A stretch of 64,000 bases of DNA. It comes from Escherichia phage vB-Eco-KMB39. Numbering within the stretch: position 1 is the stretch's first letter; the number at the start of each line of letters is the position of its first letter. Positions 9,019 to 25,676 of the stretch are shown here, piece by piece. The translations under genes were made by a program, and so were the position numbers. The stretch lies in sequence record OR539219.1; one strand, given 5' to 3'. The notes beneath the pieces are model-generated. The model was not told where the DNA came from and made no database searches. It saw nothing but the letters and a program-made list of their open reading frames with translations.

Positions 9019-9768
9019 ATGGCAAACATTATTCGTTGTAAATTACCAGATGGTGTTCATCGTTTTAAACCATTTACGGTAGAAGATTATCGAGATTTTT
9101 TGTTAGTTCGAAACGATATAGAACATCGGTCACCACAAGAACAGAAAGAAATAATTACTGATTTAATTGATGATTATTTTGGAGACTATCCGAAGACTTG
9201 GCAACCATTTATATTTTTGCAGGTATTTGTAGGGTCAATAGGTAAAACAAAAGTACCGGTCACATTTGTATGTCCAAAATGTAAAAAAGAAAAGACAGTT
9301 CCATTTGAAATATATCAAAAAGAATTAAAGGAACCTGTTTTTGATGTAGCTAATGTTAAAATTAAATTAAAGTTTCCTTCTGAGTTTTATGAAAATAAAG
9401 CAAAGATGATTACTGAAAATATTCATTCTGTTCAAGTAGATGAAATATGGTATGATTGGAAGGAAATTAGTGAATCCAGTCAAATAGAACTTGTTGATGC
9501 CATCGAGATAGAAACATTAGAAAAAATTCTCGATGCAATGAATCCTATTAATTTAACTCTACATATGTCATGCTGTAATAAGTACATTAAAAAATACACT
9601 GATATAGTAGACGTGTTTAAGCTATTAGTTAACCCAGATGAGATATTTACTTTTTATCAAATTAATCACACACTCGTAAAAAGTAATTATAGCTTAAATT
9701 CAATAATGAAAATGATTCCTGCCGAGCGCGGATTCGTATTAAAACTGATTGAGAAGGATAAACAATAA
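9019..9768 (+). CDS. 51: Baseplate hub assembly protein gp51
   Basis: 249 aa; size and synteny as T4 gp51. Confidence 0.85.
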
Positions 9769-10940
9769 TGAGTATGTTGCAACGCCCCGGATATCCAAAT
9801 CTCAGCGTTAAATTATTTGATAGCTACGACGCTTGGAGTAATAATAGATTTGTTGAATTAGCTGCTACTATTACTACATTAACTATGCGGGATTCTCTTT
9901 ATGGCCGAAATGAAGGAATGCTGCAGTTTTATGATTCTAAAAACATCCATACAAAAATGGATGGAAATGAAATAATTCAGATTTCTGTAGCTAATGCAAA
10001 TGATATTAATAATGTTAAAACACGAATTTATGGATGTAAGCATTTTTCCGTGTCAGTAGATTCAAAAGGTGATAACATCATTGCTATTGAATTGGGAACT
10101 ATTCATTCTATAGAAAATCTTAAATTTGGTAGACCATTTTTCCCTGATGCGGGTGAATCAATAAAAGAAATGCTTGGTGTCATTTATCAAGACCGTACAC
10201 TATTAACTCCAGCAATAAATGCTATAAATGCTTATGTTCCTGATATTCCATGGACTAGCACATTTGAAAACTATTTGTCATATGTAAGAGAAGTTGCTCT
10301 AGCTGTAGGAAGTGACAAATTTGTATTTGTGTGGCAAGACATCATGGGAGTTAACATGATGGACTATGATATGATGATAAACCAAGAACCATATCCAATG
10401 ATTGTCGGCGAGCCATCTTTAATAGGTCAATTCATCCAAGAATTAAAATACCCATTAGCATATGATTTCGTTTGGTTGACTAAATCGAATCCTCACAAAC
10501 GTGACCCAATGAAAAATGCTACTATCTATGCTCATTCATTTTTAGATTCTTCATTGCCAATGATTACTACGGGAAAGGGCGAAAACTCTATTGTAGTGTC
10601 AAGGTCAGGTGCTTATTCTGAAATGACTTATAGGAATGGTTATGAAGAAGCTATTCGTCTTCAAACTATGGCACAATATGACGGCTATGCTAAATGTTCT
10701 ACTGTTGGTAATTTTAACTTGACTCCTGGTGTTAAAATTATTTTTAATGATAGTAAAAACCAATTTAAAACAGAATTTTACGTTGATGAAGTTATCCATG
10801 AATTATCCAATAATAACTCAGTAACTCATCTATATATGTTCACTAATGCAACGAAACTGGAAACAATAGACCCAGTTAAGGTTAAAAATGAATTTAAATC
10901 TGATACTACCACTGAAGAAAGTAGTTCTTCCAATAAGTAA
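9768..10940 (+). CDS. 27: Baseplate hub subunit gp27
   Basis: 390 aa; size and synteny as T4 gp27. Confidence 0.88.
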
Positions 10941-11421
10941 TAAAGAAGTTTCTATTCCTAAAATGGGTCTTAAACATTATAACATTTTAAAAGATGTTAA
11001 AGGCCCTGATGAAAATTTAAAACTTCTTATTGATTCTATTTGTCCGAATTTGTCACCAGCAGAAGTTGATTTCGTTTCTATTCATTTATTGGAATTTAAT
11101 GGAAAGATTAAATCTCGTAAAGAAATAGATGGTTATACTTATGACATTAATGATGTTTATGTGTGCCAAAGATTAGAATTTCAATACCAAGGAAATACAT
11201 TTTATTTTAGACCTCCTGGAAAATTTGAACAATTTTTAACGGTGAGCGATATGTTATCTAAATGCTTACTTAAGGTCAACGATGAAGTTAAAGAAATTAA
11301 TTTTCTTGAGATGCCAGCATTCGTTTTAAAATGGGCAAATGATATTTTTACAACTTTAGCAATTCCTGGCCCTAATGGTCCAATAACTGGAATTGGCAAT
11401 ATTATTGGATTATTTGAATGA
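10888..11421 (+). CDS. 28: Baseplate hub distal subunit gp28
   Basis: 177 aa; overlaps 3' end of gene 27. Confidence 0.8.
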
Positions 11422-15637: not shown

Positions 15638-17695
15638 CTACATTTTGAACTTTTTAGACATTCCGTTGATGTTAACCAAAGAAGCCAAGATTTGAGAAAC
15701 TTCGTTTTCCTCTTCTTTTGATTCTTCTACAAGAAATTGATTAAATCCAGCCATTGGACGAACTTCACCAGTTTCCATTAGATGGTCTCCATCATATACT
15801 GATTCTTCTAATTGTTCAGAAGGAGGAACGATTGTACCTTCAATTAGATACTTGTTATAAGCAGTTTCTTTCATAAAGTACGTACTTACTTTATTAATCT
15901 TCAGTAAAATTCCACGCGGTAGAATAACTTCAGCTTCTGATGGAAATCCTGATAAATGACCTGGAACGATAACTTTGATTCGCTCAGCTCCTTTAATTAC
16001 CATACCCACGCTAGTTTCAGCATCTTCATTAGCATATGTAGAATGACTACCCATATGCATCAAATCTTCTGCATCAACGGAATCTTCTCCTTCACCGGAA
16101 AATACTGCGCCGGAATCATCTAGAGCCATATAGTTTTTACCATGCTCACCGAAGATATTTGGTTTAAGCGATGTGGATACGAAGTTCTTGAAATAAAACA
16201 TTTTATTTTCAATGTTATGACGCAAAGTTTTAAAGGTAACTTCTTGTCCACGGTAAAGCGTAGTTCCTGGAGGAAGAACTGAACCTTTAGCGAATGCAGA
16301 ATCCAACGTCTCGATGTGCTTAATAGCACGTTCCATATATTCTTCACGGGTAGAATCTGGTTTACCCAAAAGGAACGAGTTCATTTCAACATATGAATCT
16401 GCACAATAATCTTCAATTACATCAGACTCAGCCTGAGTCAGTCCTTTTGGAGTTACTTCAGTGCTTGCGTATTCATATGCCTGAGCAGCAGATTCATTAA
16501 TCAATTTATAAATGCCATTCATGACAAATTGAATAATAGCTGTCTTTTCATCTGGCGTAGCTTTAGAACCTTTAACCAAATCATTGATAATTTTCTTAAT
16601 AACATCAAAGCTATTAGAAATATTAATGTCAGCAAGATCGCTTAAAATTTTATCGGTTTTATAATCAAAGAATTCTTTATTCTTTAAATATTCTTGAGAA
16701 CCTTGATATGTTATATCGCTCTGCAGCTTGATAGATGGATCACGTAAACGCGCATGGGCCAATGCGATATGATTTCGGAAGTTTTCTAGTTCATAATCGC
16801 TAGATTTAAAACGAGAAGCACTCCTCATACCACCAATAGCTCCTTTGCTGAAGTTTGAACCAATCTGGATAACGCCAGAGTTCATTGGTCCTTCTGCTTT
16901 ATATACCGGAACTTTAGATTCAAACTCTTGATATTTCTTGGCAGCGAAGCTATCACCCTGAAGTGAAGCATCAACAGTAGAATATTGAGCTTGTGCTGCT
17001 AATCGACGACTGATTTTAGTTTTCTGAATAACAGCTTGGTCCGTGCGTTTATCATTTTCTAAAGCAATAGAAGCAGCAACAGCGACAGCTTTAGGAACAG
17101 CATTTCCTGTTTTAACGTCTACATAAACATCACCGACCTTTGATTCAACTTTTGTGAATAACTCAGTTGAAATAGGAGGTACACCTGGAATGTCTTCTAA
17201 ATTGGCATTTTTACGGTAAACCATAATATATGCATACTTTTTATCATAGTCCCAGATTTCCTTTAAAAGAACATATCGACCTGCTCCTTTAGTACGTACT
17301 AAACGGTCAGCAATAACTTGCATTTGACGAGCTGCGCCATTTGTTTTACTCTTTAGTACACGGAATAAGCACGCGTCAATTTTGTACTGCTTCATTGTTT
17401 GAAGAGCAGTATCAAAAACAGCATTAATGACGCCAATTGGATTTCCACCCAAGTTTCTAAGCTTAACCAGCGATAATTTCTCGTTGACACCTATCATTAC
17501 GATATGCATCATTTTATCGCCTAGTTTAACGTTTTTATTTGTATCACCACCAGAGGTGTATGTACAAAATCTAAATCCAGGAAGCACGCTTTCTTCGCCG
17601 GCTTGGATAGCAAAAATTTGAGGTATTTTATGCTTAGGATTTAAGTTAACAACCGGCGCCGAAGCGCCGTCAAATAATTCTGTAATAAGTTCCAT
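15638..17695 (-). CDS. Alt-like ADP-ribosyltransferase paralog (intact)
   Basis: 685 aa; N-terminal ~220 aa ~65% identical to the adjacent Alt (MELITELFD...); C-terminal ART motifs R (TLYRGQEV), STS (NFVSTSLKP), ExE (EAEVILPRG). Confidence 0.85.
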   Translation of the reverse strand: MELITELFDGASAPVVNLNPKHKIPQIFAIQAGEESVLPGFRFCTYTSGGDTNKNVKLGDKMMHIVMIGVNEKLSLVKLRNLGGNPIGVINAVFDTALQTMKQYKIDACLFRVLKSKTNGAARQMQVIADRLVRTKGAGRYVLLKEIWDYDKKYAYIMVYRKNANLEDIPGVPPISTELFTKVESKVGDVYVDVKTGNAVPKAVAVAASIALENDKRTDQAVIQKTKISRRLAAQAQYSTVDASLQGDSFAAKKYQEFESKVPVYKAEGPMNSGVIQIGSNFSKGAIGGMRSASRFKSSDYELENFRNHIALAHARLRDPSIKLQSDITYQGSQEYLKNKEFFDYKTDKILSDLADINISNSFDVIKKIINDLVKGSKATPDEKTAIIQFVMNGIYKLINESAAQAYEYASTEVTPKGLTQAESDVIEDYCADSYVEMNSFLLGKPDSTREEYMERAIKHIETLDSAFAKGSVLPPGTTLYRGQEVTFKTLRHNIENKMFYFKNFVSTSLKPNIFGEHGKNYMALDDSGAVFSGEGEDSVDAEDLMHMGSHSTYANEDAETSVGMVIKGAERIKVIVPGHLSGFPSEAEVILPRGILLKINKVSTYFMKETAYNKYLIEGTIVPPSEQLEESVYDGDHLMETGEVRPMAGFNQFLVEESKEEENEVSQILASLVNINGMSKKFKM

Positions 17696-17698
17696 GAT

Positions 17699-19792
17699 TT
17701 ATCCTTGAACGAACTTGTAAGGCATGTTTGTAATATCTATGCAAGACGCAATAATTCCAAGAGATGATTCTACTTTCTGTTTAACATTTGATGAAACAAA
17801 TGATGCAAAGTCAACTTTGTCTTCTATTTCAATATCACCTGTCATTGCAACTACTTCGCCGGTTTCCATTAAACGGTCACCGTCATAAATTACCGATTCG
17901 GTGAGTTCTTCTGTGGTCATAACTTCAGCTTGAATGAGTTTTGTATTATTAGACGTGATTCCGTCATTATTAGAAGCATCAGTTATTTTATTAACTTTGA
18001 CCATCAATCCACGCGGTAGAATAACTTCAGCTTCTGTTGCTATTCCGAGACTTCCTGGATATACAACATTAACTTTATGAGCTCCATCAATTGCCCATCC
18101 TATTTGAACTTTAACGTATTCAGGATTTTCTTTATACGCTCTTATTTCGTTTGGATTAATAGTTATTCCTTCTTCATTTTTATCAACTGTTAATTCATTG
18201 CGAGCTTCTGGTTCTAAAAGACCAATACCAGCATGTGTAATTCCAAAACGTCCAAAAATGATAGGAGTTAAAGAAGTAGATACAAAATTTCTGAAATAGA
18301 ACACTTTATTTTTAACTAGTGCTTCGTATATAGGAGCAGTCATACTTTGAGCACGATAAACTGTAATGCCTTCTGGTATACGGTCACCATTTTCAAAAGC
18401 TGAATCTAAATTATTTATAGCAGATTCAATTTCTTTTTCACTCATTATATCATATCGTTCTGGATTGTAACGACCTAAAAGAAGATTATTGATGTCTGTA
18501 TATCCTGAACCACAATACTCTCTAATGCCGCGCTTTTGTGATGGAGTATATTTAGAACCATCACGGGCAATAGTAATATCAATCATTGGACCTGCACCAA
18601 TTCCGGAAAAGCTATAAATCATTCGTTTGAGGAATTTAGTTTTTGCTGCATTCCAGGCATTTTTAGTTATTTCTCCCCAGACTTCATCTGGCTGCCCTTT
18701 ACGAGTTTTATTATGTTTATCAAGCCAATTATCTTTATATTCTTCAAATAATTGATTAACAGCTGCTGCGTATTTCTCTAAACATTTTATTGAAGTAGTT
18801 GGTTCATTTTTAATCGCATTAAGAATTACATCTTTAATTTTTTCTGAAACTTCACCGACTTGACTCATTGGAAAGAATTTATAATCATAGTGAAGTTCAT
18901 CTGCCGTTCCTTCAGCAATAATTTTTGCTGCCTTAGTTTTAGAAGCTAATGAATTAATTCCAAGCTTCATTTCTTCTGCTTCGGGAATTAAAGGTGCAGT
19001 AGCAGGTTTATTGAAATTAGCTGCGGTAGATTCATACTTCTGGAATAATTCACTTTCAAATCTAGAAGATTCCAATGACTGACTTTGTGCAATTGCTCTA
19101 CGGGAAATTTTAACTTTAACGATTACGGCTTGGTCAGAACGTTTATCGTTTTCTTGTGCAATAGATGCAGCAATTGCCTCATTTTTGGTTACTTGAGCTC
19201 CAGTATCTTTATTAATATAAACATCACCGACCTTCGATTCAACTTTAGTAAAGAGCTCGGTACTAATTTCCGGAACTCCTGGAATGTCTTCTAGTGATAC
19301 ATTTTTGCGATGTATAAGAATATATGCATACTTTTTATCATAATCCCAGAGTTCCTTAAGAAGGACGTATCTGCCACCTGAACGACTACGGATAAGTCTA
19401 TCAGCAATAACTTGAATTTGTCGAGCTTGGCCAGCAGTTTTAGACTTAAGAATACGAAGCATACAAGCATCAATTTTATACTGACGCATTGTTTGCATTG
19501 CAACAGTAAAAACTGAATTGATATAATTAATTGGGCTTGGACCAAGACCTTTTAATTTAGCAATTGAACCTTTAGCAGTTAATGTAAAAGGAACAATATG
19601 CATCATTTTGTCGCCCATTTTTAAATCGCGATTAGTATCACCTCCAGATGTATAGGTACATAAACGAAAGCCTGGTTGTTCAATTGCATCATCAACATGA
19701 ACTGAAAAAATTTGTGGTATTTTCTTCTTTGGATTTAAGTTTGTAATCGGAAGAGTAGTATCTTCGTCAAATAATTCTGTAATAAGTTCCAT
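17699..19792 (-). CDS. alt: Alt ADP-ribosyltransferase (capsid-packaged, modifies host RNA polymerase)
   Basis: 697 aa; MELITELFDEDTTLPITNLNPKKKIPQIF...; ART motifs TVYRAQSM / NFVSTSLTP / EAEVILPRG; adjacent to gene 30 as in T4. Confidence 0.88.
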   Translation of the reverse strand: MELITELFDEDTTLPITNLNPKKKIPQIFSVHVDDAIEQPGFRLCTYTSGGDTNRDLKMGDKMMHIVPFTLTAKGSIAKLKGLGPSPINYINSVFTVAMQTMRQYKIDACMLRILKSKTAGQARQIQVIADRLIRSRSGGRYVLLKELWDYDKKYAYILIHRKNVSLEDIPGVPEISTELFTKVESKVGDVYINKDTGAQVTKNEAIAASIAQENDKRSDQAVIVKVKISRRAIAQSQSLESSRFESELFQKYESTAANFNKPATAPLIPEAEEMKLGINSLASKTKAAKIIAEGTADELHYDYKFFPMSQVGEVSEKIKDVILNAIKNEPTTSIKCLEKYAAAVNQLFEEYKDNWLDKHNKTRKGQPDEVWGEITKNAWNAAKTKFLKRMIYSFSGIGAGPMIDITIARDGSKYTPSQKRGIREYCGSGYTDINNLLLGRYNPERYDIMSEKEIESAINNLDSAFENGDRIPEGITVYRAQSMTAPIYEALVKNKVFYFRNFVSTSLTPIIFGRFGITHAGIGLLEPEARNELTVDKNEEGITINPNEIRAYKENPEYVKVQIGWAIDGAHKVNVVYPGSLGIATEAEVILPRGLMVKVNKITDASNNDGITSNNTKLIQAEVMTTEELTESVIYDGDRLMETGEVVAMTGDIEIEDKVDFASFVSSNVKQKVESSLGIIASCIDITNMPYKFVQG

Positions 19793-19815
19793 GTTATCCT
19801 CTCTAGTGTTTATTC

Positions 19816-19823
19816 TATTTATA
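19816..19823 (-). promoter_or_regulatory. Late promoter (TATAAATA on minus strand) upstream of alt
   Basis: Plus-strand TATTTATA about 25 nt upstream of alt ATG; fits Alt being a late, head-packaged protein. Confidence 0.6.
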
Positions 19824-19828
19824 AAATT

Positions 19829-19845
19829 AAAGGCCCGAAGGCCTT
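19829..19845 (-). terminator. Hairpin terminator upstream of alt late promoter
   Basis: AAAGGCC-CGAA-GGCCTTT. Confidence 0.5.
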
Positions 19846-19848
19846 TAA

Positions 19849-20034
19849 TTAATAGAGAGCTAAAAGAGTACGATATACTTCAAACTTTGGACCTTTTTCA
19901 TATGGATCAAATCTTTCCATGAATTCATCATATGCTAGTTTATCTGGGAATTCAAGAATAACCTGCGATACCGCAGTGGAAACATCTCCACCTTCTTTTT
20001 GAGCCACGACAATTGTTTCTAAGTAAGCTTTCAT
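19849..20034 (-). CDS. Hypothetical small protein, start overlaps gene 30 stop
   Basis: 61 aa ORF; ATGA-type overlap with ligase stop codon. Confidence 0.5.
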   Translation of the reverse strand: MKAYLETIVVAQKEGGDVSTAVSQVILEFPDKLAYDEFMERFDPYEKGPKFEVYRTLLALY

Positions 20035-21494
20035 AAACCAGTTACCTCATGAAAATCGCCAAATACATCTTCGAACGTATTAGCTTTAGTTTTATCTTCA
20101 CGTAAACGAATTGCAATTGGAAGAAATAGCTTAACGTAATCAGTACGTCCATCTAATTTTACCCAGCCGTTGCATTCGCACTCTAGAATTTTTCCAATAT
20201 AATAATTTTGGTTTTCCATAATGCGAGTACGATCAAGTTCATGCGATTTTATACCGGCTTTATCTTTTAAGCCTGAACCAGCATTTACTTTAATTTTTCC
20301 ACACTCTGATTCAAGAATGAAACCACCTGCTTTAGTAGGGTCTTTACGGTGAGGATAAATTCCTACAATTTTTAAATCAACATCAATTACTTCTTTAAAT
20401 TTATAAAGATTTTTTGAACGAGCATTTTCCCATAATCCATCGATATTTTTAAGAATAATACCTTCAAGACCTTGGTCAATATACTTTTTATAAATTACCT
20501 TAGCTTCATCTAGGTTATTTACTACTTGGTTTTCAATTAAAATTACTTTATCATAGCCTGATGTCATTTGTTCTAGTTTAGAAAAACGTACATCATATTT
20601 TAAACGAAATGCTGGAAGACCATATATTTCTACTAATGGAACATAGTCCCAGACCTGAAACTTCATGCATTGTGCTTCTTTTTCAGAAATGGTTCCCTTT
20701 AAAGATTTATTAGCGATTCCATTAGAAGTAGTACGTGATTCAGCTACTTCGGCGAATTCTTTAGCTTTACTAATTTCAGGATAAGCATCAAAAAGAAAAT
20801 CTAGGCCTTCTGGTTCCTTTTTAACTTGCTCATGGTATACCAATTCGCCATCAATTAACACACCTTCTGGATGAATCTGGCGAGCTTCTGCAGTCATTTT
20901 GATTAACTCTTCCTTGAGAAGATCTAATCCTAGATATTCATTACCAGCTCGTGATAAAAGACGAACATCATCTAATTCATCACCTCTGACTTCAGCAAAA
21001 CAGCGAGCTCCATCAGCTTTTAGCTGTGCAAAGGCTGGAAATTTGATATTCTTATTAATGCCTTTTTCGTCATAAGAACTTGCTAGCATTTGAGGTTGTT
21101 CAGGAATTAAACCTGGCCAAACTTTGTTTGCAATAGATACTGATGCACCGCATTCAAGGTCTCGCATCATCACCCGACGCAAAACTTCAACATCATCTTT
21201 TTTACCGTCAGTAATATATCCAGTTAATTCCTCAATTGCCGCATTTCCAGTCAATTTCCGAGTAGCTAACGTGAATTCAATGAAGTCAAGCATATCGGTA
21301 AGAGTCAACATTCCAAAACTCTGGGTAGTAATACCCGGTTTAGGCCATTTCTTGATATAATACTGTAACCCACGAGAATAAGTCAGACGATATACTCGTT
21401 TAAGCAATTCATTATCTTTATTCTTTTCAAGAATTGCTTGCTTCTGCTTAGTTGAACCAATAGATGCTATTTCGTTCAGAATTTTAAGAATCAT
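20031..21494 (-). CDS. 30: ATP-dependent DNA ligase gp30
   Basis: 487 aa; MILKILNEIASIGSTKQKQAILEKNKDNELLKRVYRLTY...; adenylation lysine motif region; matches recalled T4 ligase. Confidence 0.93.
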   Translation of the reverse strand: MILKILNEIASIGSTKQKQAILEKNKDNELLKRVYRLTYSRGLQYYIKKWPKPGITTQSFGMLTLTDMLDFIEFTLATRKLTGNAAIEELTGYITDGKKDDVEVLRRVMMRDLECGASVSIANKVWPGLIPEQPQMLASSYDEKGINKNIKFPAFAQLKADGARCFAEVRGDELDDVRLLSRAGNEYLGLDLLKEELIKMTAEARQIHPEGVLIDGELVYHEQVKKEPEGLDFLFDAYPEISKAKEFAEVAESRTTSNGIANKSLKGTISEKEAQCMKFQVWDYVPLVEIYGLPAFRLKYDVRFSKLEQMTSGYDKVILIENQVVNNLDEAKVIYKKYIDQGLEGIILKNIDGLWENARSKNLYKFKEVIDVDLKIVGIYPHRKDPTKAGGFILESECGKIKVNAGSGLKDKAGIKSHELDRTRIMENQNYYIGKILECECNGWVKLDGRTDYVKLFLPIAIRLREDKTKANTFEDVFGDFHEVTGL

Positions 21495-21760
21495 TGTTCA
21501 TCCTTTAGAGTTTGGTTTACAGCTCTATTATAAATCAATTCATCATTAAGCTCAGTCAAAGACCTGTGATACGTGGTTCTAACTTTATTTCCTTGCATCC
21601 AGTGCTTGACATAAATGAAACCTTGCTCTACACATTTTTTAAAAATTCGTTCGTCTTTTTGAGCTCGGAATTCTGGATTGCATCTAAAAAATTGATTTAC
21701 GTGACCGTAATCACGTGTAGTATTACCTTCATTTTCATAAATAGTGTGAACGACAAACAT
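21491..21760 (-). CDS. Hypothetical protein (position of T4 30.1)
   Basis: 89 aa ORF. Confidence 0.55.
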   Translation of the reverse strand: MFVVHTIYENEGNTTRDYGHVNQFFRCNPEFRAQKDERIFKKCVEQGFIYVKHWMQGNKVRTTYHRSLTELNDELIYNRAVNQTLKDEQ

Positions 21761-22596
21761 TAGAATGCTCCTTGGAAAATATTATCACCACTAGTAGGTC
21801 TATTATACAAATACTCTATGCCACCGGGTTTAATATAGTTCCATGTCTGAAACGGATGCGTCTGATATGGATGATATAGATTATAAGGATTAAATCCAGG
21901 AGTTCTCCAGGTAGTGTTCCAAGGAAAAGAATCGTTTTTAATCATCTTTTCAATTACATCTTTTATAGCTTTTTCACTATCAAAACTTTCTTTATTTTCA
22001 TTCGATGGAAAAAGCTTATTCTCTACATCATTCCATGTATAAACTCGCTGTGCAGCTTTTGGAATATTGTCACGCTCTCCTCGAGCCATCCAATAAACAG
22101 GAACATTTAATATTTCACTCGCATGATCGCAGTGGTGAGCGAGATCGTCAATATAACAAATTACGTTATATTTCTCTTTTGCCTTTTTGAACAACTCTTC
22201 TTTTGAAGAATCATGACCACACATCAATACTTCTGAGAAGGCATCAGGAAAAAGAGCATTCAAATTAAATTGACGATTCAGCAGAGCGTCAATAGAATCA
22301 CCCAGTGCTGTAACAGCTACAAAATTATAATCTTCTTTTAATTTGTTAATTACACACAGGGCATCTTTATATGGAGACAAATAGCGAATAAAATCTGAAC
22401 GATTATACTTTTCGATTAATTTAACACCAAGTTCTTCATCGCAATTAAAGAGCTTACCAGGAGAAATAAATTTTTCGTCCTGAATCATTTTTAAAATATG
22501 TTCCAACGGAAGATTATATTTTTGGGCAAAATAAGGAAGGCCTGATTGCCAGCTTAAACATACTCCATCAATATCAGTTAAAATAGTAGGCTTCAT
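21760..22596 (-). CDS. HAD-superfamily-like hydrolase with Pro/Tyr/Trp-rich C-terminal tail (position of T4 30.2)
   Basis: 278 aa; N-terminal DxDG motif (ILTDIDGV), candidate motif II (VAVTALG) and motif IV (YIDD). Confidence 0.6.
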   Translation of the reverse strand: MKPTILTDIDGVCLSWQSGLPYFAQKYNLPLEHILKMIQDEKFISPGKLFNCDEELGVKLIEKYNRSDFIRYLSPYKDALCVINKLKEDYNFVAVTALGDSIDALLNRQFNLNALFPDAFSEVLMCGHDSSKEELFKKAKEKYNVICYIDDLAHHCDHASEILNVPVYWMARGERDNIPKAAQRVYTWNDVENKLFPSNENKESFDSEKAIKDVIEKMIKNDSFPWNTTWRTPGFNPYNLYHPYQTHPFQTWNYIKPGGIEYLYNRPTSGDNIFQGAF

Positions 22597-23057
22597 AGAG
22601 AGTCTCTTAATAGGTTTAACACATCAATAAATTCAGCTTCGGTTAGTATTGTATCATCTTTTGTTAGACCACTAGCCATGCTATGCTTCAAAATTTTTCC
22701 TTTTGAGGCTTGTAAGGCATCACGAAACCCCTTGTTTTGGATCGCTGCTTCAAAATATGCATTTGTATACAATTCTTTCCACGCTGGAGAGTATCTTGAA
22801 AACGGAACTCCAAGCCAGAAGAGGGTCCCACGGTCTTGAGCTCTAGCATAAGACCTTCCAGCTTGTTGGGCGGCAAGCCCGGATAACCCAAATATACGAC
22901 GTTGTTGTTCAGCATTTTTCACCTTACATCCTTGAAGGAATCCTTCGAGACCTCCAAATTGGATACCATCCATAACGAAAGGCCATTGGGCGAAATTGCT
23001 TAATGCACATGATGGCCATCTAAAATTGCTTCTTATTTCTAGCTCAGACATTTTCAA
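22593..23057 (-). CDS. NADAR (YbiA/DUF1768)-like domain protein (position of T4 30.3)
   Basis: 154 aa; segment ALSNFAQWPFVMDGIQFGGLEGFLQGCKV resembles the YbiA/NADAR core (FSNFAAWP...DG...SEHYFQAQKF); motif-level only. Confidence 0.55.
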   Translation of the reverse strand: MKMSELEIRSNFRWPSCALSNFAQWPFVMDGIQFGGLEGFLQGCKVKNAEQQRRIFGLSGLAAQQAGRSYARAQDRGTLFWLGVPFSRYSPAWKELYTNAYFEAAIQNKGFRDALQASKGKILKHSMASGLTKDDTILTEAEFIDVLNLLRDSL

Positions 23058-23250
23058 TACTTATAATTTCAACATCAGCCCAATGACCATAGCAAGGAAG
23101 ACGAAATTCAACTGGCCAGTTAGGGTCCTTTTCTAATATAATAGACTTAACTTGTGGTTCTTCATGTTCATCGGTATACGGACCTTTATACGTTACTTTA
23201 TATGTGACCTTAATGTACTGAATTCCAAAAATCTTATTAATTATATTCAT
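23044..23250 (-). CDS. Hypothetical small protein (30.x series)
   Basis: 68 aa ORF in overlapping tandem array. Confidence 0.5.
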   Translation of the reverse strand: MNIINKIFGIQYIKVTYKVTYKGPYTDEHEEPQVKSIILEKDPNWPVEFRLPCYGHWADVEIISIENV

Positions 23251-23444
23251 ACTAATTCCTTTAATCCATAGATAGGAGATAATTCATCACCCATACGAAG
23301 GTCTTCATTTCCATCTACCCAGGAAACAATATAAGCCTCTTTTATTTGAATACCACTCCATTTAAATGGAGGTAGAACCTTAGAAATTAATCCAGGTATA
23401 CCGACTCCCTTTAATTCAACAGTTTGACCCAAAAAGAATTTCAT
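23247..23444 (-). CDS. Hypothetical small protein (30.x series)
   Basis: 65 aa ORF, 4-nt overlap with neighbour. Confidence 0.5.
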   Translation of the reverse strand: MKFFLGQTVELKGVGIPGLISKVLPPFKWSGIQIKEAYIVSWVDGNEDLRMGDELSPIYGLKELV

Positions 23445-23731
23445 TAGAACCTCATCTGAAAACCATGCGATTTAACATTACCGCCGTCAATATCAGAAAT
23501 GTTAATTTCACGCGCAATTGAAGGGTCAATGTCAATTTCACGATTGAGTTTAGCGATAGCTAGAGTATCACGCCCATTTACAGTACGGAACTCTAAAGGG
23601 CAGACTGCATTAACATAGTTTTTAATCGATTCACTGGTAGGCTGCAAATGAGCAGGAAGGTCTTTAGGCGCCTTAGAGAAAACTACTTCGCAAAAATTTT
23701 TACGAGTATCAAAATAAGTAGTCATAAACAT
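23444..23731 (-). CDS. Hypothetical protein (30.x series)
   Basis: 95 aa ORF. Confidence 0.5.
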   Translation of the reverse strand: MFMTTYFDTRKNFCEVVFSKAPKDLPAHLQPTSESIKNYVNAVCPLEFRTVNGRDTLAIAKLNREIDIDPSIAREINISDIDGGNVKSHGFQMRF

Positions 23732-23747
23732 AGTATTTTCCTCAGTA

Positions 23748-23763
23748 AGGGGCCGAAGCCCCT
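23748..23763 (-). terminator. Hairpin (UUCG-loop) between 30.x genes
   Basis: AGGGGCCGAAGCCCCT, same stem-loop as at 1738. Confidence 0.45.
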
Positions 23764-23771
23764 ATTTTATT

Positions 23772-24137
23772 TTAAATATCAAATTCATTAAGAACTACAT
23801 CAAAGATTGCTTCAAGATGCTCAGGTTTAGCTCTGTTGCTCAGAATATGACGAATCCAAGTTTTAACCAGAAGCTTGCGATTAACGCCATTCCAACAAGG
23901 ATGAGTACCTAAATCACGTTGACGGAAATCATCATCTAATGCGATTTTAAAGGAAGAACCTTCTTTCGTGATTGAAACCGTGATGCCATTTTCAAATCGC
24001 ATATAAACGTAGTTAGGAGTCATATACTGTTCAATTTCGCATACTGATCCATTTTGATGTTTCCAAAGGCAGATAGTATCAATAGAACCTGCAATACCAT
24101 TAGAAACATATTTACGTTCAAAGTTGATGTAGTTCAT
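23772..24137 (-). CDS. Hypothetical protein (30.x series)
   Basis: 121 aa ORF. Confidence 0.55.
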   Translation of the reverse strand: MNYINFERKYVSNGIAGSIDTICLWKHQNGSVCEIEQYMTPNYVYMRFENGITVSITKEGSSFKIALDDDFRQRDLGTHPCWNGVNRKLLVKTWIRHILSNRAKPEHLEAIFDVVLNEFDI

Positions 24138-24205
24138 TTTTATTCTCCGAGATGTTTAATTGCGGTACAGGTATATAATATCATATCCTGTACCAAAGTA
24201 AACAA

Positions 24206-24538
24206 TTATTTTACTACTTTCCAGTGCTGCATGTCAAGTTTGCCAACTTTTTTCATCTTCTCAATTAAGCGTTCGGCACGTTGGCGAGCTGTAACATAAT
24301 ACCATTCACCTAATTCATTTTGTTCAATTTTTCCAACGATTACTGTATTCAACTCATAAATCCAACCGGTAAAGAAATTATGAACTTGAATTGTAAAGGT
24401 GAAATCTGTTCCCATACCTTCTGTTGTTTCTACTTCAATAATATCACCTTCAACTGCCATTAAGAACCACATAGTTTCATCATATTTACCATTGAAGCAT
24501 TTAGTTTTAACTGTAGCGTTCAGATTAATCGTTTTCAT
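24206..24538 (-). CDS. Hypothetical protein (30.x series)
   Basis: 110 aa ORF preceded by early promoter. Confidence 0.55.
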   Translation of the reverse strand: MKTINLNATVKTKCFNGKYDETMWFLMAVEGDIIEVETTEGMGTDFTFTIQVHNFFTGWIYELNTVIVGKIEQNELGEWYYVTARQRAERLIEKMKKVGKLDMQHWKVVK

Positions 24539-24565
24539 TTTATTCTCCTTTGTTTGTGTAAGATA

Positions 24566-24594
24566 ATACTATCACAAAGGAACTATACTGTAAA
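24566..24594 (-). promoter_or_regulatory. Sigma70-type phage early promoter
   Basis: Minus strand: -35 TTTACA, 17 nt, -10 TAGTAT; about 28 nt upstream of ATG at 24538. Confidence 0.5.
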
Positions 24595-24623
24595 CAACTT
24601 TGTGCAATCTTTGGAAAATAAAA

Positions 24624-24646
24624 AAGGACTCCCGAAGGAGTCCTTA
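24624..24646 (-). terminator. Intrinsic terminator
   Basis: AAGGACTCC-CGAA-GGAGTCCTT; minus-strand hairpin followed by UUUUUAUUUU. Confidence 0.65.
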
Positions 24647-24648
24647 AC

Positions 24649-24825
24649 TTATGCTTTCTGCTTACCAAAACGAGAAGCATCATCTCGAAGAACCGCACGT
24701 GCTCGGCGCATGATCTTCTCAACAGTTTGATTAATACGAGAGTTCGACCCACGCTTGTAACCAGCGCGTTTAGAATCACCAACTTTCTTTTCAACTGCTT
24801 TCTTTGCTTTAGCTTGTTTTGCCAT
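24649..24825 (-). CDS. Small highly basic protein (position of T4 30.9)
   Basis: Probable start MAKQAKAKKAVEKKVGDSKRAGYKRGSNSR... (58 aa); the longer 72 aa ORF-track version lacks an obvious RBS. Confidence 0.5.
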   Translation of the reverse strand: MAKQAKAKKAVEKKVGDSKRAGYKRGSNSRINQTVEKIMRRARAVLRDDASRFGKQKA

Positions 24826-24944
24826 TATAAATTCTCTTTTAAATGAAAATGCAGGACTTATTGGCATTGCCTGCGCAAGCCCTCAAGGGGAACATAGGTT
24901 TTATATATTTACCGACAGGATAACCATAAACCTCGTCAACATAA

Positions 24945-25193
24945 TTACTTCAGTGTTACCACAAAGTGACGAACTGCTTTTCGTGCAGCAGAAGCCAGAG
25001 GCTTAGCATATTTAAGTTCATCTTTTTCCTGAAGCTCAGCAGCTAATGCAGTTTGAGCAGGATTCAGATGTTTGAAATAACGCAGGATTTCAAGAGCTTC
25101 GGCTTCAACATCAATAGATGCGCCATAGTTTTCGTGACCATTATTCCATGCGTTTCGTTGCAGTTCAAGAGCGTGTTGTAATTGTTTAATCAT
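24945..25193 (-). CDS. rIII: rIII lysis-inhibition accessory protein
   Basis: 82 aa; MIKQLQHALELQRNAWNNGHENYGASIDVEAEALEIL...; size and sequence as recalled T4 rIII. Confidence 0.9.
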   Translation of the reverse strand: MIKQLQHALELQRNAWNNGHENYGASIDVEAEALEILRYFKHLNPAQTALAAELQEKDELKYAKPLASAARKAVRHFVVTLK

Positions 25194-25325
25194 TTAAAAA
25201 TTCTCGTTAGAGATTAAAACTCGGTAGTCACGTTCTTCTGAATTTCATCTTCTTTCGACAGATCTCTCAGTTGTAGACTACCACGTAGAATTGTTCGGTT
25301 AACTTATTATTCCGACACCCAATTC

Positions 25326-25333
25326 ATATTATT
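25326..25333 (-). promoter_or_regulatory. Late promoter (TATAAATA on minus strand) in the 31-rIII intergenic region
   Basis: Plus-strand TATTTATA about 135 nt upstream of rIII ATG. Confidence 0.45.
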
Positions 25334-25340
25334 ATTTATA

Positions 25341-25676
25341 TCACTTATAAAGACATGGAATAGCTTTATAATGACATGTTACGAATTTTTGTTTAATTTC
25401 TTTTGGCTGCTTAAGACCCAGAGCTACAAAAGGATGCGGAACATTTCGAATTTGACCAACTGGAAGAGAAGTCAAATCACCAACTTCGCAGAAACCTTCA
25501 GGAACATCAGGACCAACAGAGTGAACTACACACAGTTCAGGAACTTCACCTTGAACACGTTTACCGATAATGAGTCCTGATTCTGTAACTTCTTCATCAC
25601 CAGCTTGCGCAGGTTCAGAAACTAAAATAACAAATTCACCGACAGCACGAATTGGTAGCTGTTGTACTTCAGACAT
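25341..25676 (-). CDS. 31: gp31 co-chaperonin (GroES analogue) required for head assembly
   Basis: 111 aa; [40 protein letters not shown]...; matches recalled T4 gp31. Confidence 0.92.

What the first reader, a model, noticed from the sequence alone, without database searches (positions are those of the whole stretch)
22593..23057. NADAR (YbiA-like) domain ORF in the gene 30 accessory cluster
The 154 aa ORF contains ALSNFAQWPFVMDGIQFGGLEGFLQGCKV, which resembles the conserved core of the YbiA/DUF1768 (NADAR) family (FSNFAAWP...DG...SEHYFQAQKF in E. coli YbiA). NADAR proteins have been linked to hydrolysis of ADP-ribose adducts, including ADP-ribosylated guanine on DNA. In a phage that also encodes Alt-type ADP-ribosyltransferases, this could be counter-defence against DNA ADP-ribosylating toxins or a regulator of phage-driven ADP-ribosylation.
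Basis: inference. Interest (0 to 1): 0.55.

Follow-up and report, generated by a model that had tools for sequence, protein, structure and literature searches.

The report
Phage anti-DarT enzyme AdfN (gp30.3)

Summary
The ORF is real. Its start is most likely the ATG at 23051 (152 aa), not the TTG at 23057. The protein is 149/152 identical to T4 gp30.3 and sits in the same place, between 30.4 and 30.2 upstream of the ligase gene 30. It matches Pfam PF08010 (Phage_30_3) at E=1.2e-69.

It gives no direct hit to the Pfam NADAR model PF08719. NADAR membership holds at deeper levels:
- 11 of 71 family members hit PF08719.
- hhalign against E. coli YbiA gives 93.5% probability.

Catalytic Glu36 and Lys43 are present. 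The His123 that marks phage NADARs is also present. All three residues are invariant in 80 viral loci. dN/dS against T4 is 0.036.

T4 gp30.3 was predicted to be a NADAR in 2012. It was shown to hydrolyse guanine-ADP-ribose in vitro in 2024. In 2025 it was shown to be necessary and sufficient against DarTG1 and renamed AdfN. The alternative idea, regulation of the phage's own Alt-type ADP-ribosylation, has no support.

The parts
22593..23051 (-). adfN (T4 gene 30.3) coding sequence, 152 aa plus stop
   Evidence: ORF. It is 149/152 identical to T4 gp30.3 and matches PF08010 at E=1.2e-69, 232.9 bits against a cut-off of 36. The exact protein is WPJ71379.1 of phage vB-Eco-KMB39, and the T4 member of its cluster is named 'Anti-DarT factor NADAR, NADAR_BPT4'.
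23044..23051 (-). 8-nt overlap (ATGTCTGA) of the adfN start codon with the end of upstream gene 30.4; suggests translational coupling
   Evidence: Read from the sequence. Coupling is an inference.
22944..22946 (-). codon for Glu36, the catalytic Glu that contacts the distal ribose
   Evidence: Aligned to YbiA E48 by hhalign. Invariant in 81/81 sequences. E36A in T4 AdfN abolishes in vitro activity and weakens rescue (PMC11825919).
22923..22925 (-). codon for Lys43, the conserved Lys that contacts the ADP-ribose phosphates
   Evidence: Aligned to YbiA K55. Invariant in 81/81. K43A weakens rescue. It is equivalent to K50 of PnNADAR and K95 of E. coli C7 NADAR.
22683..22685 (-). codon for His123 in the last beta-strand, the residue that marks phage NADARs
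   Evidence: The hhalign alignment ends one residue earlier (K122 with YbiA V124). Extended by one position it puts H123 opposite YbiA E125. Model strand E120-123. Present in all 80 complete sequences. The literature states Glu in YbiA, Asp in DarG1 and His in phage NADARs.
22599..22640 (-). C-terminal helix (residues 138-151), intact here
   Evidence: Helix H138-151 in the model. The RB69 allele loses this helix through a frameshift and is non-functional. The window allele is full length.
22593..22596 (-). ATGA overlap of the adfN stop with the start of downstream gene 30.2 (HAD-like, 278 aa)
   Evidence: Read from the sequence. The arrangement is the same in T4.

Best explanation
The ORF is the orthologue of T4 gene 30.3, now called adfN (anti-DarT factor NADAR). 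It encodes a minimal, single-domain NADAR-fold ADP-ribosylglycohydrolase. When a host carrying the DarTG1 toxin-antitoxin defence is infected, the DarT1 toxin attaches ADP-ribose to the N2 of guanine in phage DNA and blocks replication. AdfN hydrolyses that bond and restores the unmodified base, so the phage replicates. Glu36 and His123 flank the distal ribose, and Lys43 holds the phosphates. The enzyme acts on the adduct and does not bind the toxin. Shown here: gene identity, synteny, fold, presence and invariance of the catalytic residues, intact C-terminal helix, and purifying selection. Taken from the literature on the 98%-identical T4 protein: the chemistry and the anti-DarTG1 phenotype. 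Inferred: that this allele, with its three conservative substitutions A47, I120 and M125, behaves the same way.
Against: The window protein has no direct HMMER hit to Pfam NADAR PF08719, even at E<=10, and none in NCBIfam or PADLOC, so superfamily membership rests on profile-profile, transitive and structural evidence. No experiment exists on this exact allele. In the literature AdfN from T4 does not rescue uninfected E. coli from DarT1 and only weakly helps non-T-even phages, so hydrolase activity alone does not fully account for the in vivo function.
Confidence: 0.95

Rival explanations
1. It reverses or tunes the phage's own ADP-ribosylation (Alt paralogues nearby, ModA/ModB elsewhere) by removing ADP-ribose from host or phage proteins.
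For: Two Alt-type ADP-ribosyltransferase genes lie about 2.8 kb away on the same strand.
Against: Alt-type enzymes are annotated as arginine ADP-ribosyltransferases acting on protein (RNA polymerase). In the papers read, NADARs hydrolyse guanine (some subfamilies also cytosine) adducts in DNA and RNA and are inactive on thymine and phosphate-end adducts; I found no report of protein de-ADP-ribosylation. Loss of adfN has a clear DarTG1-specific phenotype and the gene is dispensable on K-12. Most homologues in other phages have none of the gene-30-cluster neighbours within 4 kb, but alt itself lies about 2.8 kb further on and was not among the queries, so this says little about linkage to alt.
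Confidence: 0.02
2. It is a YbiA-type housekeeping N-glycosidase acting on riboflavin-pathway intermediates or other small molecules.
For: YbiA is the best sequence-level PDB relative and one of the two best structural matches.
Against: The Glu that defines the YbiA subfamily is replaced by His123 in every family member (literature). The gene sits in a lytic phage. The published phenotype is DarTG1-specific.
Confidence: 0.01
3. It neutralises the defence without catalysis, by binding DarT1 or another immune protein, as a different phage NADAR is reported to do without needing enzymatic activity.
For: [quoted passage not shown] E36A and K43A mutants of AdfN still give partial rescue.
Against: A bacterial two-hybrid assay shows no AdfN-DarT1 association. 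The E36A protein is inactive in vitro and the mutants rescue poorly. The catalytic triad is invariant across 80 loci, which argues for selection on catalysis.
Confidence: 0.02

Closest known systems
T4 gp30.3 = AdfN (UniProt NADAR_BPT4; Pfam PF08010 Phage_30_3)
   Same: 98% identical (149/152), same length, same genomic position, same catalytic Glu36/Lys43/His123 and the same C-terminal helix.
   Different: Three conservative substitutions (A47 for V, I120 for V, M125 for I), none at an invariant column.
DarG1, the NADAR antitoxin of DarTG1 (E. coli C7 NADAR; Geobacter lovleyi NADAR, PDB 8bat)
   Different: DarG1 has Asp where AdfN has His, carries an N-terminal extension that forms an electropositive channel, and is encoded next to DarT1. 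AdfN is the bare core domain (152 aa) with no toxin gene beside it, and in the literature it cannot replace DarG1 in uninfected cells.
E. coli YbiA (PDB 2b3w) and the YbiA subfamily (Pfam PF08719 NADAR)
   Different: About 20% identity. YbiA has Glu125 where AdfN has His123. YbiA is a chromosomal gene beside rhlE and dinG linked to riboflavin-intermediate N-glycosidase activity and swarming. The window protein does not reach any score against PF08719.
AdfN-Bas32 and AdfN-Bas60 (NADARs of T5-like and Vequintavirinae phages)
   Same: Phage-encoded orphan NADARs that counter DarTG1 and are specific for guanine.
   Different: They come from other branches of the superfamily, were acquired independently, and work without a T-even infection context. 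They were not compared by sequence here.

Membership tests
Phage NADAR / AdfN (gp30.3, Pfam PF08010) | Match to PF08010 above the gathering score | tested here: met
   232.9 bits against a cut-off of 36, E=1.2e-69, covering profile positions 1-138 of 138.
Phage NADAR / AdfN (gp30.3, Pfam PF08010) | Orthology and synteny with T4 gene 30.3 | tested here: met
   149/152 identical. Flanked by 30.4 and 30.2, upstream of 30.1 and ligase gene 30, as in T4.
Phage NADAR / AdfN (gp30.3, Pfam PF08010) | His in the last beta-strand in place of the Glu (YbiA) or Asp (DarG1) | tested here: met
   H123 lies in model strand 120-123. The hhalign alignment, extended by one position, puts it opposite YbiA E125. 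It is present in all 80 complete homologues.
Phage NADAR / AdfN (gp30.3, Pfam PF08010) | Full-length protein with the C-terminal helix that the inactive RB69 allele lacks | tested here: met
   152 aa ending RDSL with no frameshift; helix 138-151 at high pLDDT.
Phage NADAR / AdfN (gp30.3, Pfam PF08010) | Orphan: no DarT toxin gene next to it | tested here: met
   The neighbours 30.1, 30.2 and 30.4-30.8 have no ADP-ribosyltransferase domain in Pfam. The nearest ARTs are Alt paralogues of the PF03496 exoenzyme type, not DarT.
Phage NADAR / AdfN (gp30.3, Pfam PF08010) | Protects the phage from DarTG1 during infection | not testable with these tools
   Published for the T4 and T2 alleles (PMC11825919; HIDEN-SEQ preprint).
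NADAR superfamily | Detectable sequence homology to NADAR/YbiA proteins | tested here: met
   The direct HMMER scan of the window protein against PF08719 is negative. However, 11/71 family members hit PF08719 (best E=1.5e-7), the family profile finds YbiA at E=0.0086, and hhalign gives 93.5% probability, E=2.2e-7.
NADAR superfamily | NADAR fold (helical core flanked by small sheets) | tested here: met
NADAR superfamily | Conserved Glu and Lys seven residues apart (E43/K50 in PnNADAR, E88/K95 in E. coli C7 NADAR) | tested here: met
   E36 and K43 align to YbiA E48 and K55 and are invariant in 81 sequences. A residue-by-residue structural superposition was not available.
NADAR superfamily | Hydrolysis of guanine-N2-ADP-ribose in nucleic acid | not testable with these tools
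   Published for the T4 protein on DNA and RNA.
YbiA subfamily (riboflavin-intermediate N-glycosidase) | Glu in the last beta-strand | tested here: not met
   His123 occupies that position. This is not a YbiA-subfamily member.
DarG1 antitoxin NADAR | Asp in the last strand, N-terminal extension, and a gene adjacent to darT1 | tested here: not met
   His123 is there instead. The protein starts 13 residues before the conserved core, and no DarT gene is adjacent.

The most novel reading that the evidence does not exclude
The literature leaves one point open: T4-type AdfN is fully active only during T-even infection and seems to need an unidentified phage factor. The most novel reading my evidence does not exclude is that this factor is one of the neighbours whose reading frames overlap adfN. 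These are gp30.2, a HAD-motif protein with an ATGA overlap, and gp30.4, with an 8-nt overlap. On this reading the gene-30 accessory cluster would be a small DNA de-ADP-ribosylation and repair module next to the ligase. Counting against it: a gp30.2 homologue lies within 4 kb of adfN in only 24 of 80 viral loci, nearly all of them loci that also carry the T4-type ligase. The section of the HIDEN-SEQ preprint I read reports adfN as conditionally essential on the DarTG1 host and the text never mentions 30.2; I did not see the full hit list for that screen.
Probability: 0.05. Interest if true: 0.5.

Novelty: already known. Interest (0 to 1): 0.12.

Why it matters
As a discovery it does not matter, because gene, fold, chemistry and biological role are all published. 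It does show that the first-stage reader can recover a remote-homology call (about 20% identity to YbiA) and the correct biology from raw sequence. It also exposes an annotation gap: in the 30 of 1,510 matching GenBank phage records that were listed, the gene was called 'hypothetical protein' or 'gp30.3', never AdfN, and neither NCBIfam nor PADLOC names it. For phage-therapy or host-range prediction, an intact adfN with E36, K43, H123 and the C-terminal helix predicts resistance to DarTG1-carrying hosts. A frameshifted allele such as RB69's predicts sensitivity.

Tried and rejected
- **Direct scans of the window protein.** Pfam PF08719, NCBIfam and PADLOC gave no hit. phmmer against PDB gave only YbiA at E=1.3. 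Homology had to be shown through the family profile, hhalign and structure.
- **Conserved 30.3-30.2 gene pair.** The gene downstream of a jumbo-phage homologue is unrelated to gp30.2. Across 80 loci, 30.2 lies near adfN almost only where the T4-type ligase does too. I rejected it as a general module.
- **gp30.2 characterisation.** There was no significant Pfam, NCBIfam or PDB sequence hit. The single-sequence AlphaFold model was useless (pLDDT 40.3), so I ran no fold search. An alignment-based model was not possible, because structure prediction accepts only window sequences and proteins returned by the search for homologous proteins, and the gp30.2 homologues came from other tools.
- **The internal out-of-frame ORF 30.3' annotated in T4.** I tested it for conservation and rejected it as a likely gene.
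- **Promoter and terminator scan of 19800..25400.** The number of promoter-like sites equals the shuffled expectation. One 11/12 match at 24237..24208 (-) is only a lead.
- **de Souza & Aravind 2012.** The paper is not in the searchable library. Its content is cited second-hand through.
- **Two align_proteins calls failed** because tblastn coordinates ran through stop codons. I redid the extraction with ORFs in Python.

Full report
**Observation.** The ORF listing finds a minus-strand ORF at 22593..23057 (154 aa from a TTG) containing the quoted peptide. Two codons downstream is an ATG at 23051. T4 annotates its orthologue from that ATG as a 152-aa protein (gene 30.3, NP_049816.1). Only that start reproduces the published residue numbers E36 and K43. 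The ATG overlaps the last codons of gene 30.4 by 8 nt, and the stop overlaps the ATG of gene 30.2 (ATGA), so the three genes are probably translationally coupled (inference).

**Where the window comes from.** It is a Tequatrovirus (T4-like) genome. The 1.6-kb and 24-kb regions around the ORF are 95-97% identical to hundreds of Escherichia and Shigella phages. The gene order ligase 30 - 30.1 - 30.2 - 30.3 - 30.4 ... 30.8 is that of T4. The protein is 149/152 identical to T4 gp30.3; the window has A47, I120 and M125 where T4 has V, V and I. The exact sequence exists in GenBank as WPJ71379.1 of phage vB-Eco-KMB39. The T4 member of the same cluster carries the UniRef name 'Anti-DarT factor NADAR, NADAR_BPT4'.

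**Is it a real, selected gene?** Against T4 there are 20 synonymous and 3 non-synonymous differences (dN/dS 0.036). Against 13 further alleles of 84-99% protein identity, dN/dS is 0.02-0.15. tblastn finds a homologue in 1,510 of 50,697 phage records, and 1,503 of these cover at least 80% of the protein.

**Is it a NADAR?** The window protein matches Pfam PF08010 (Phage_30_3) at E=1.2e-69 but gives no hit to the NADAR model PF08719, even at E<=10. phmmer against PDB finds only YbiA at a non-significant E=1.3. Four deeper tests were run.
- I aligned 71 diverse homologues of 35-86% identity. Scanned one by one, 11 of them hit PF08719, best E=1.5e-7.
- The family profile finds YbiA (2b3w) as the top PDB sequence at E=0.0086.
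- hhalign of the family against YbiA gives 93.5% probability, E=2.2e-7 over 90 columns.

This independently reproduces the structural result reported for T4 AdfN.

**Catalytic residues.** The hhalign register puts E36 opposite YbiA E48 and K43 opposite YbiA K55. The alignment ends at K122 opposite YbiA V124; extended by one position it puts H123 opposite YbiA E125. The literature defines these positions as follows. There is a Glu and a Lys seven residues apart (E43/K50 in PnNADAR, E88/K95 in E. coli C7 NADAR) that contact the distal ribose and the phosphates. There is also a third residue in the last strand, which is Glu in YbiA-type proteins, Asp in DarT1-associated proteins and His in phage NADARs. 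In the model H123 lies in the last strand, 120-123. In 80 viral loci from IMG/VR, E36 and K43 are present in all 81 sequences and H123 in all 80 complete ones; the single gap is a contig end. The C-terminal helix (138-151), whose loss inactivates the RB69 allele, is intact.

**What it does.** This rests on published work with the 98%-identical T4 protein.
- Cihlova et al. 2024 (PMC11125620) showed that the T4 NADAR hydrolyses guanine-ADP-ribose but not thymine-ADP-ribose in vitro, and that it does not rescue E. coli from DarT1.
- Johannesman et al. 2025 (PMC11825919) mapped DarTG1 resistance of T-even phages to gene 30.3 and renamed it adfN. Deletion sensitises T4 and T2. Ectopic expression rescues RB69. 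E36A and K43A are impaired. The purified protein removes ADP-ribose from DarT1-modified DNA. There is no binding to DarT1 and no effect on DarTG2.
- A transposon screen confirmed that adfN is conditionally essential on a DarTG1 host.
- Activity on guanine-ADP-ribosylated RNA has also been reported. Cytosine adducts are listed as substrates of other NADAR subfamilies only.

The mechanism is therefore enzymatic reversal of the toxin's DNA adduct. That this allele does the same is an inference, though a safe one.

**Comparison and membership.** It is a member of the phage NADAR/AdfN family: every defining feature that could be tested was met. It belongs to the NADAR superfamily. It is not a member of the YbiA subfamily (His instead of Glu). 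It is not a DarG1 antitoxin (no Asp, no N-terminal extension, no adjacent darT). Two full-length Alt paralogues (PF03496) lie at 15638..19792, but Alt-type enzymes are annotated as arginine ADP-ribosyltransferases acting on protein. I found no report of a NADAR removing ADP-ribose from protein in the papers read.

**What remains open.** T4-type AdfN works fully only in a T-even infection, and an unknown phage factor is postulated. I asked whether the overlapping neighbour gp30.2 could be that factor. It has a HAD-type LTDIDGV motif and a conserved N-terminal domain of about 195 aa. It lies within 4 kb of adfN in only 24 of 80 loci, nearly all of which also carry the T4-type ligase. It is not adjacent in a jumbo-phage homologue. 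The HIDEN-SEQ preprint text never mentions 30.2, although I did not see that screen's full hit list. I could not characterise gp30.2 further. This is a low-probability lead.

**Verdict.** The feature is already known. Interest is low.

Noticed in passing
window 22688..22915 (-): The out-of-frame internal ORF that T4 annotates as gene 30.3' (75 aa) is also open here. Its ATG is replaced by ACG, ATT or ATC in 8 of 15 close alleles, and one allele (L017) has an internal stop. Its protein differs from T4's by 10 of 75 residues (my count from the sequences), against 2% for AdfN. It is probably not a real gene.
   Followed up: yes
window 15638..17695 (-) and 17699..19792 (-): There are two full-length tandem Alt-type ADP-ribosyltransferase paralogues (685 and 697 aa, both PF03496). 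T4 has one alt gene plus the decayed duplicate fragments alt.-1 and alt.-2. Related phages are also annotated with two copies.
   Followed up: partly
window 21760..22596 (-): gp30.2 overlaps the adfN stop (ATGA). It has a HAD-phosphatase-like motif (LTDIDGV) and a conserved N-terminal domain of about 195 aa, followed by a variable Pro/Tyr/Gln/Asn-rich tail that is absent in many relatives. There is no significant Pfam, NCBIfam or PDB sequence hit, and only a weak PHROG similarity to a polynucleotide kinase family (E=0.0017). The single-sequence AlphaFold model failed (pLDDT 40).
   Followed up: partly
protein collection cluster of window 22593..23051: The 90%-identity cluster holding this protein (1,386 members) has a 279-aa gp30.2 sequence as its representative and mixes gp30.2 and gp30.3 proteins. 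This looks like a clustering artefact. It probably explains why search for homologous proteins returned no hit of 98% identity or more.
   Followed up: partly
alignment A2 (gp30.3 family): 49 of 71 family members, though not the window protein itself, match the PADLOC model PDC-M42C, a component of a candidate defence system (best E=3.4e-5). That candidate bacterial system may therefore contain a phage-type NADAR.
   Followed up: no
L003 6001..6468 and neighbours (308-kb contig): A 38%-identical AdfN homologue sits in a jumbo-phage-like contig. A NUDIX hydrolase gene (9115..9879) and a Thg1-like gene (10308..11294) lie 2.6-4 kb downstream. NUDIX enzymes can degrade free ADP-ribose, but no functional link was tested.
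   Followed up: no
L038 4001..4558 (327-kb viral contig): This AdfN homologue carries a C-terminal extension of about 35 aa with CxxC...CxxC spacing (CCPKCGSTNIHC...ECLDCHHEWR), which looks like a zinc ribbon fused to the NADAR core.
   Followed up: no
window 24237..24208 (-): This is the best sigma-70-like promoter match in the region (TTGACA-18-TAAAAT, 11/12), just upstream of gene 30.7. It could drive early transcription through 30.7-30.3-30.2. The overall number of promoter-like sites is no higher than in shuffled sequence.
   Followed up: no
GenBank phage records matching window 22593..23051: 1,510 phage records hold a homologue. In the 30 records listed it is called 'hypothetical protein' or 'gp30.3', never AdfN, more than a year after the AdfN paper.
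   Followed up: no
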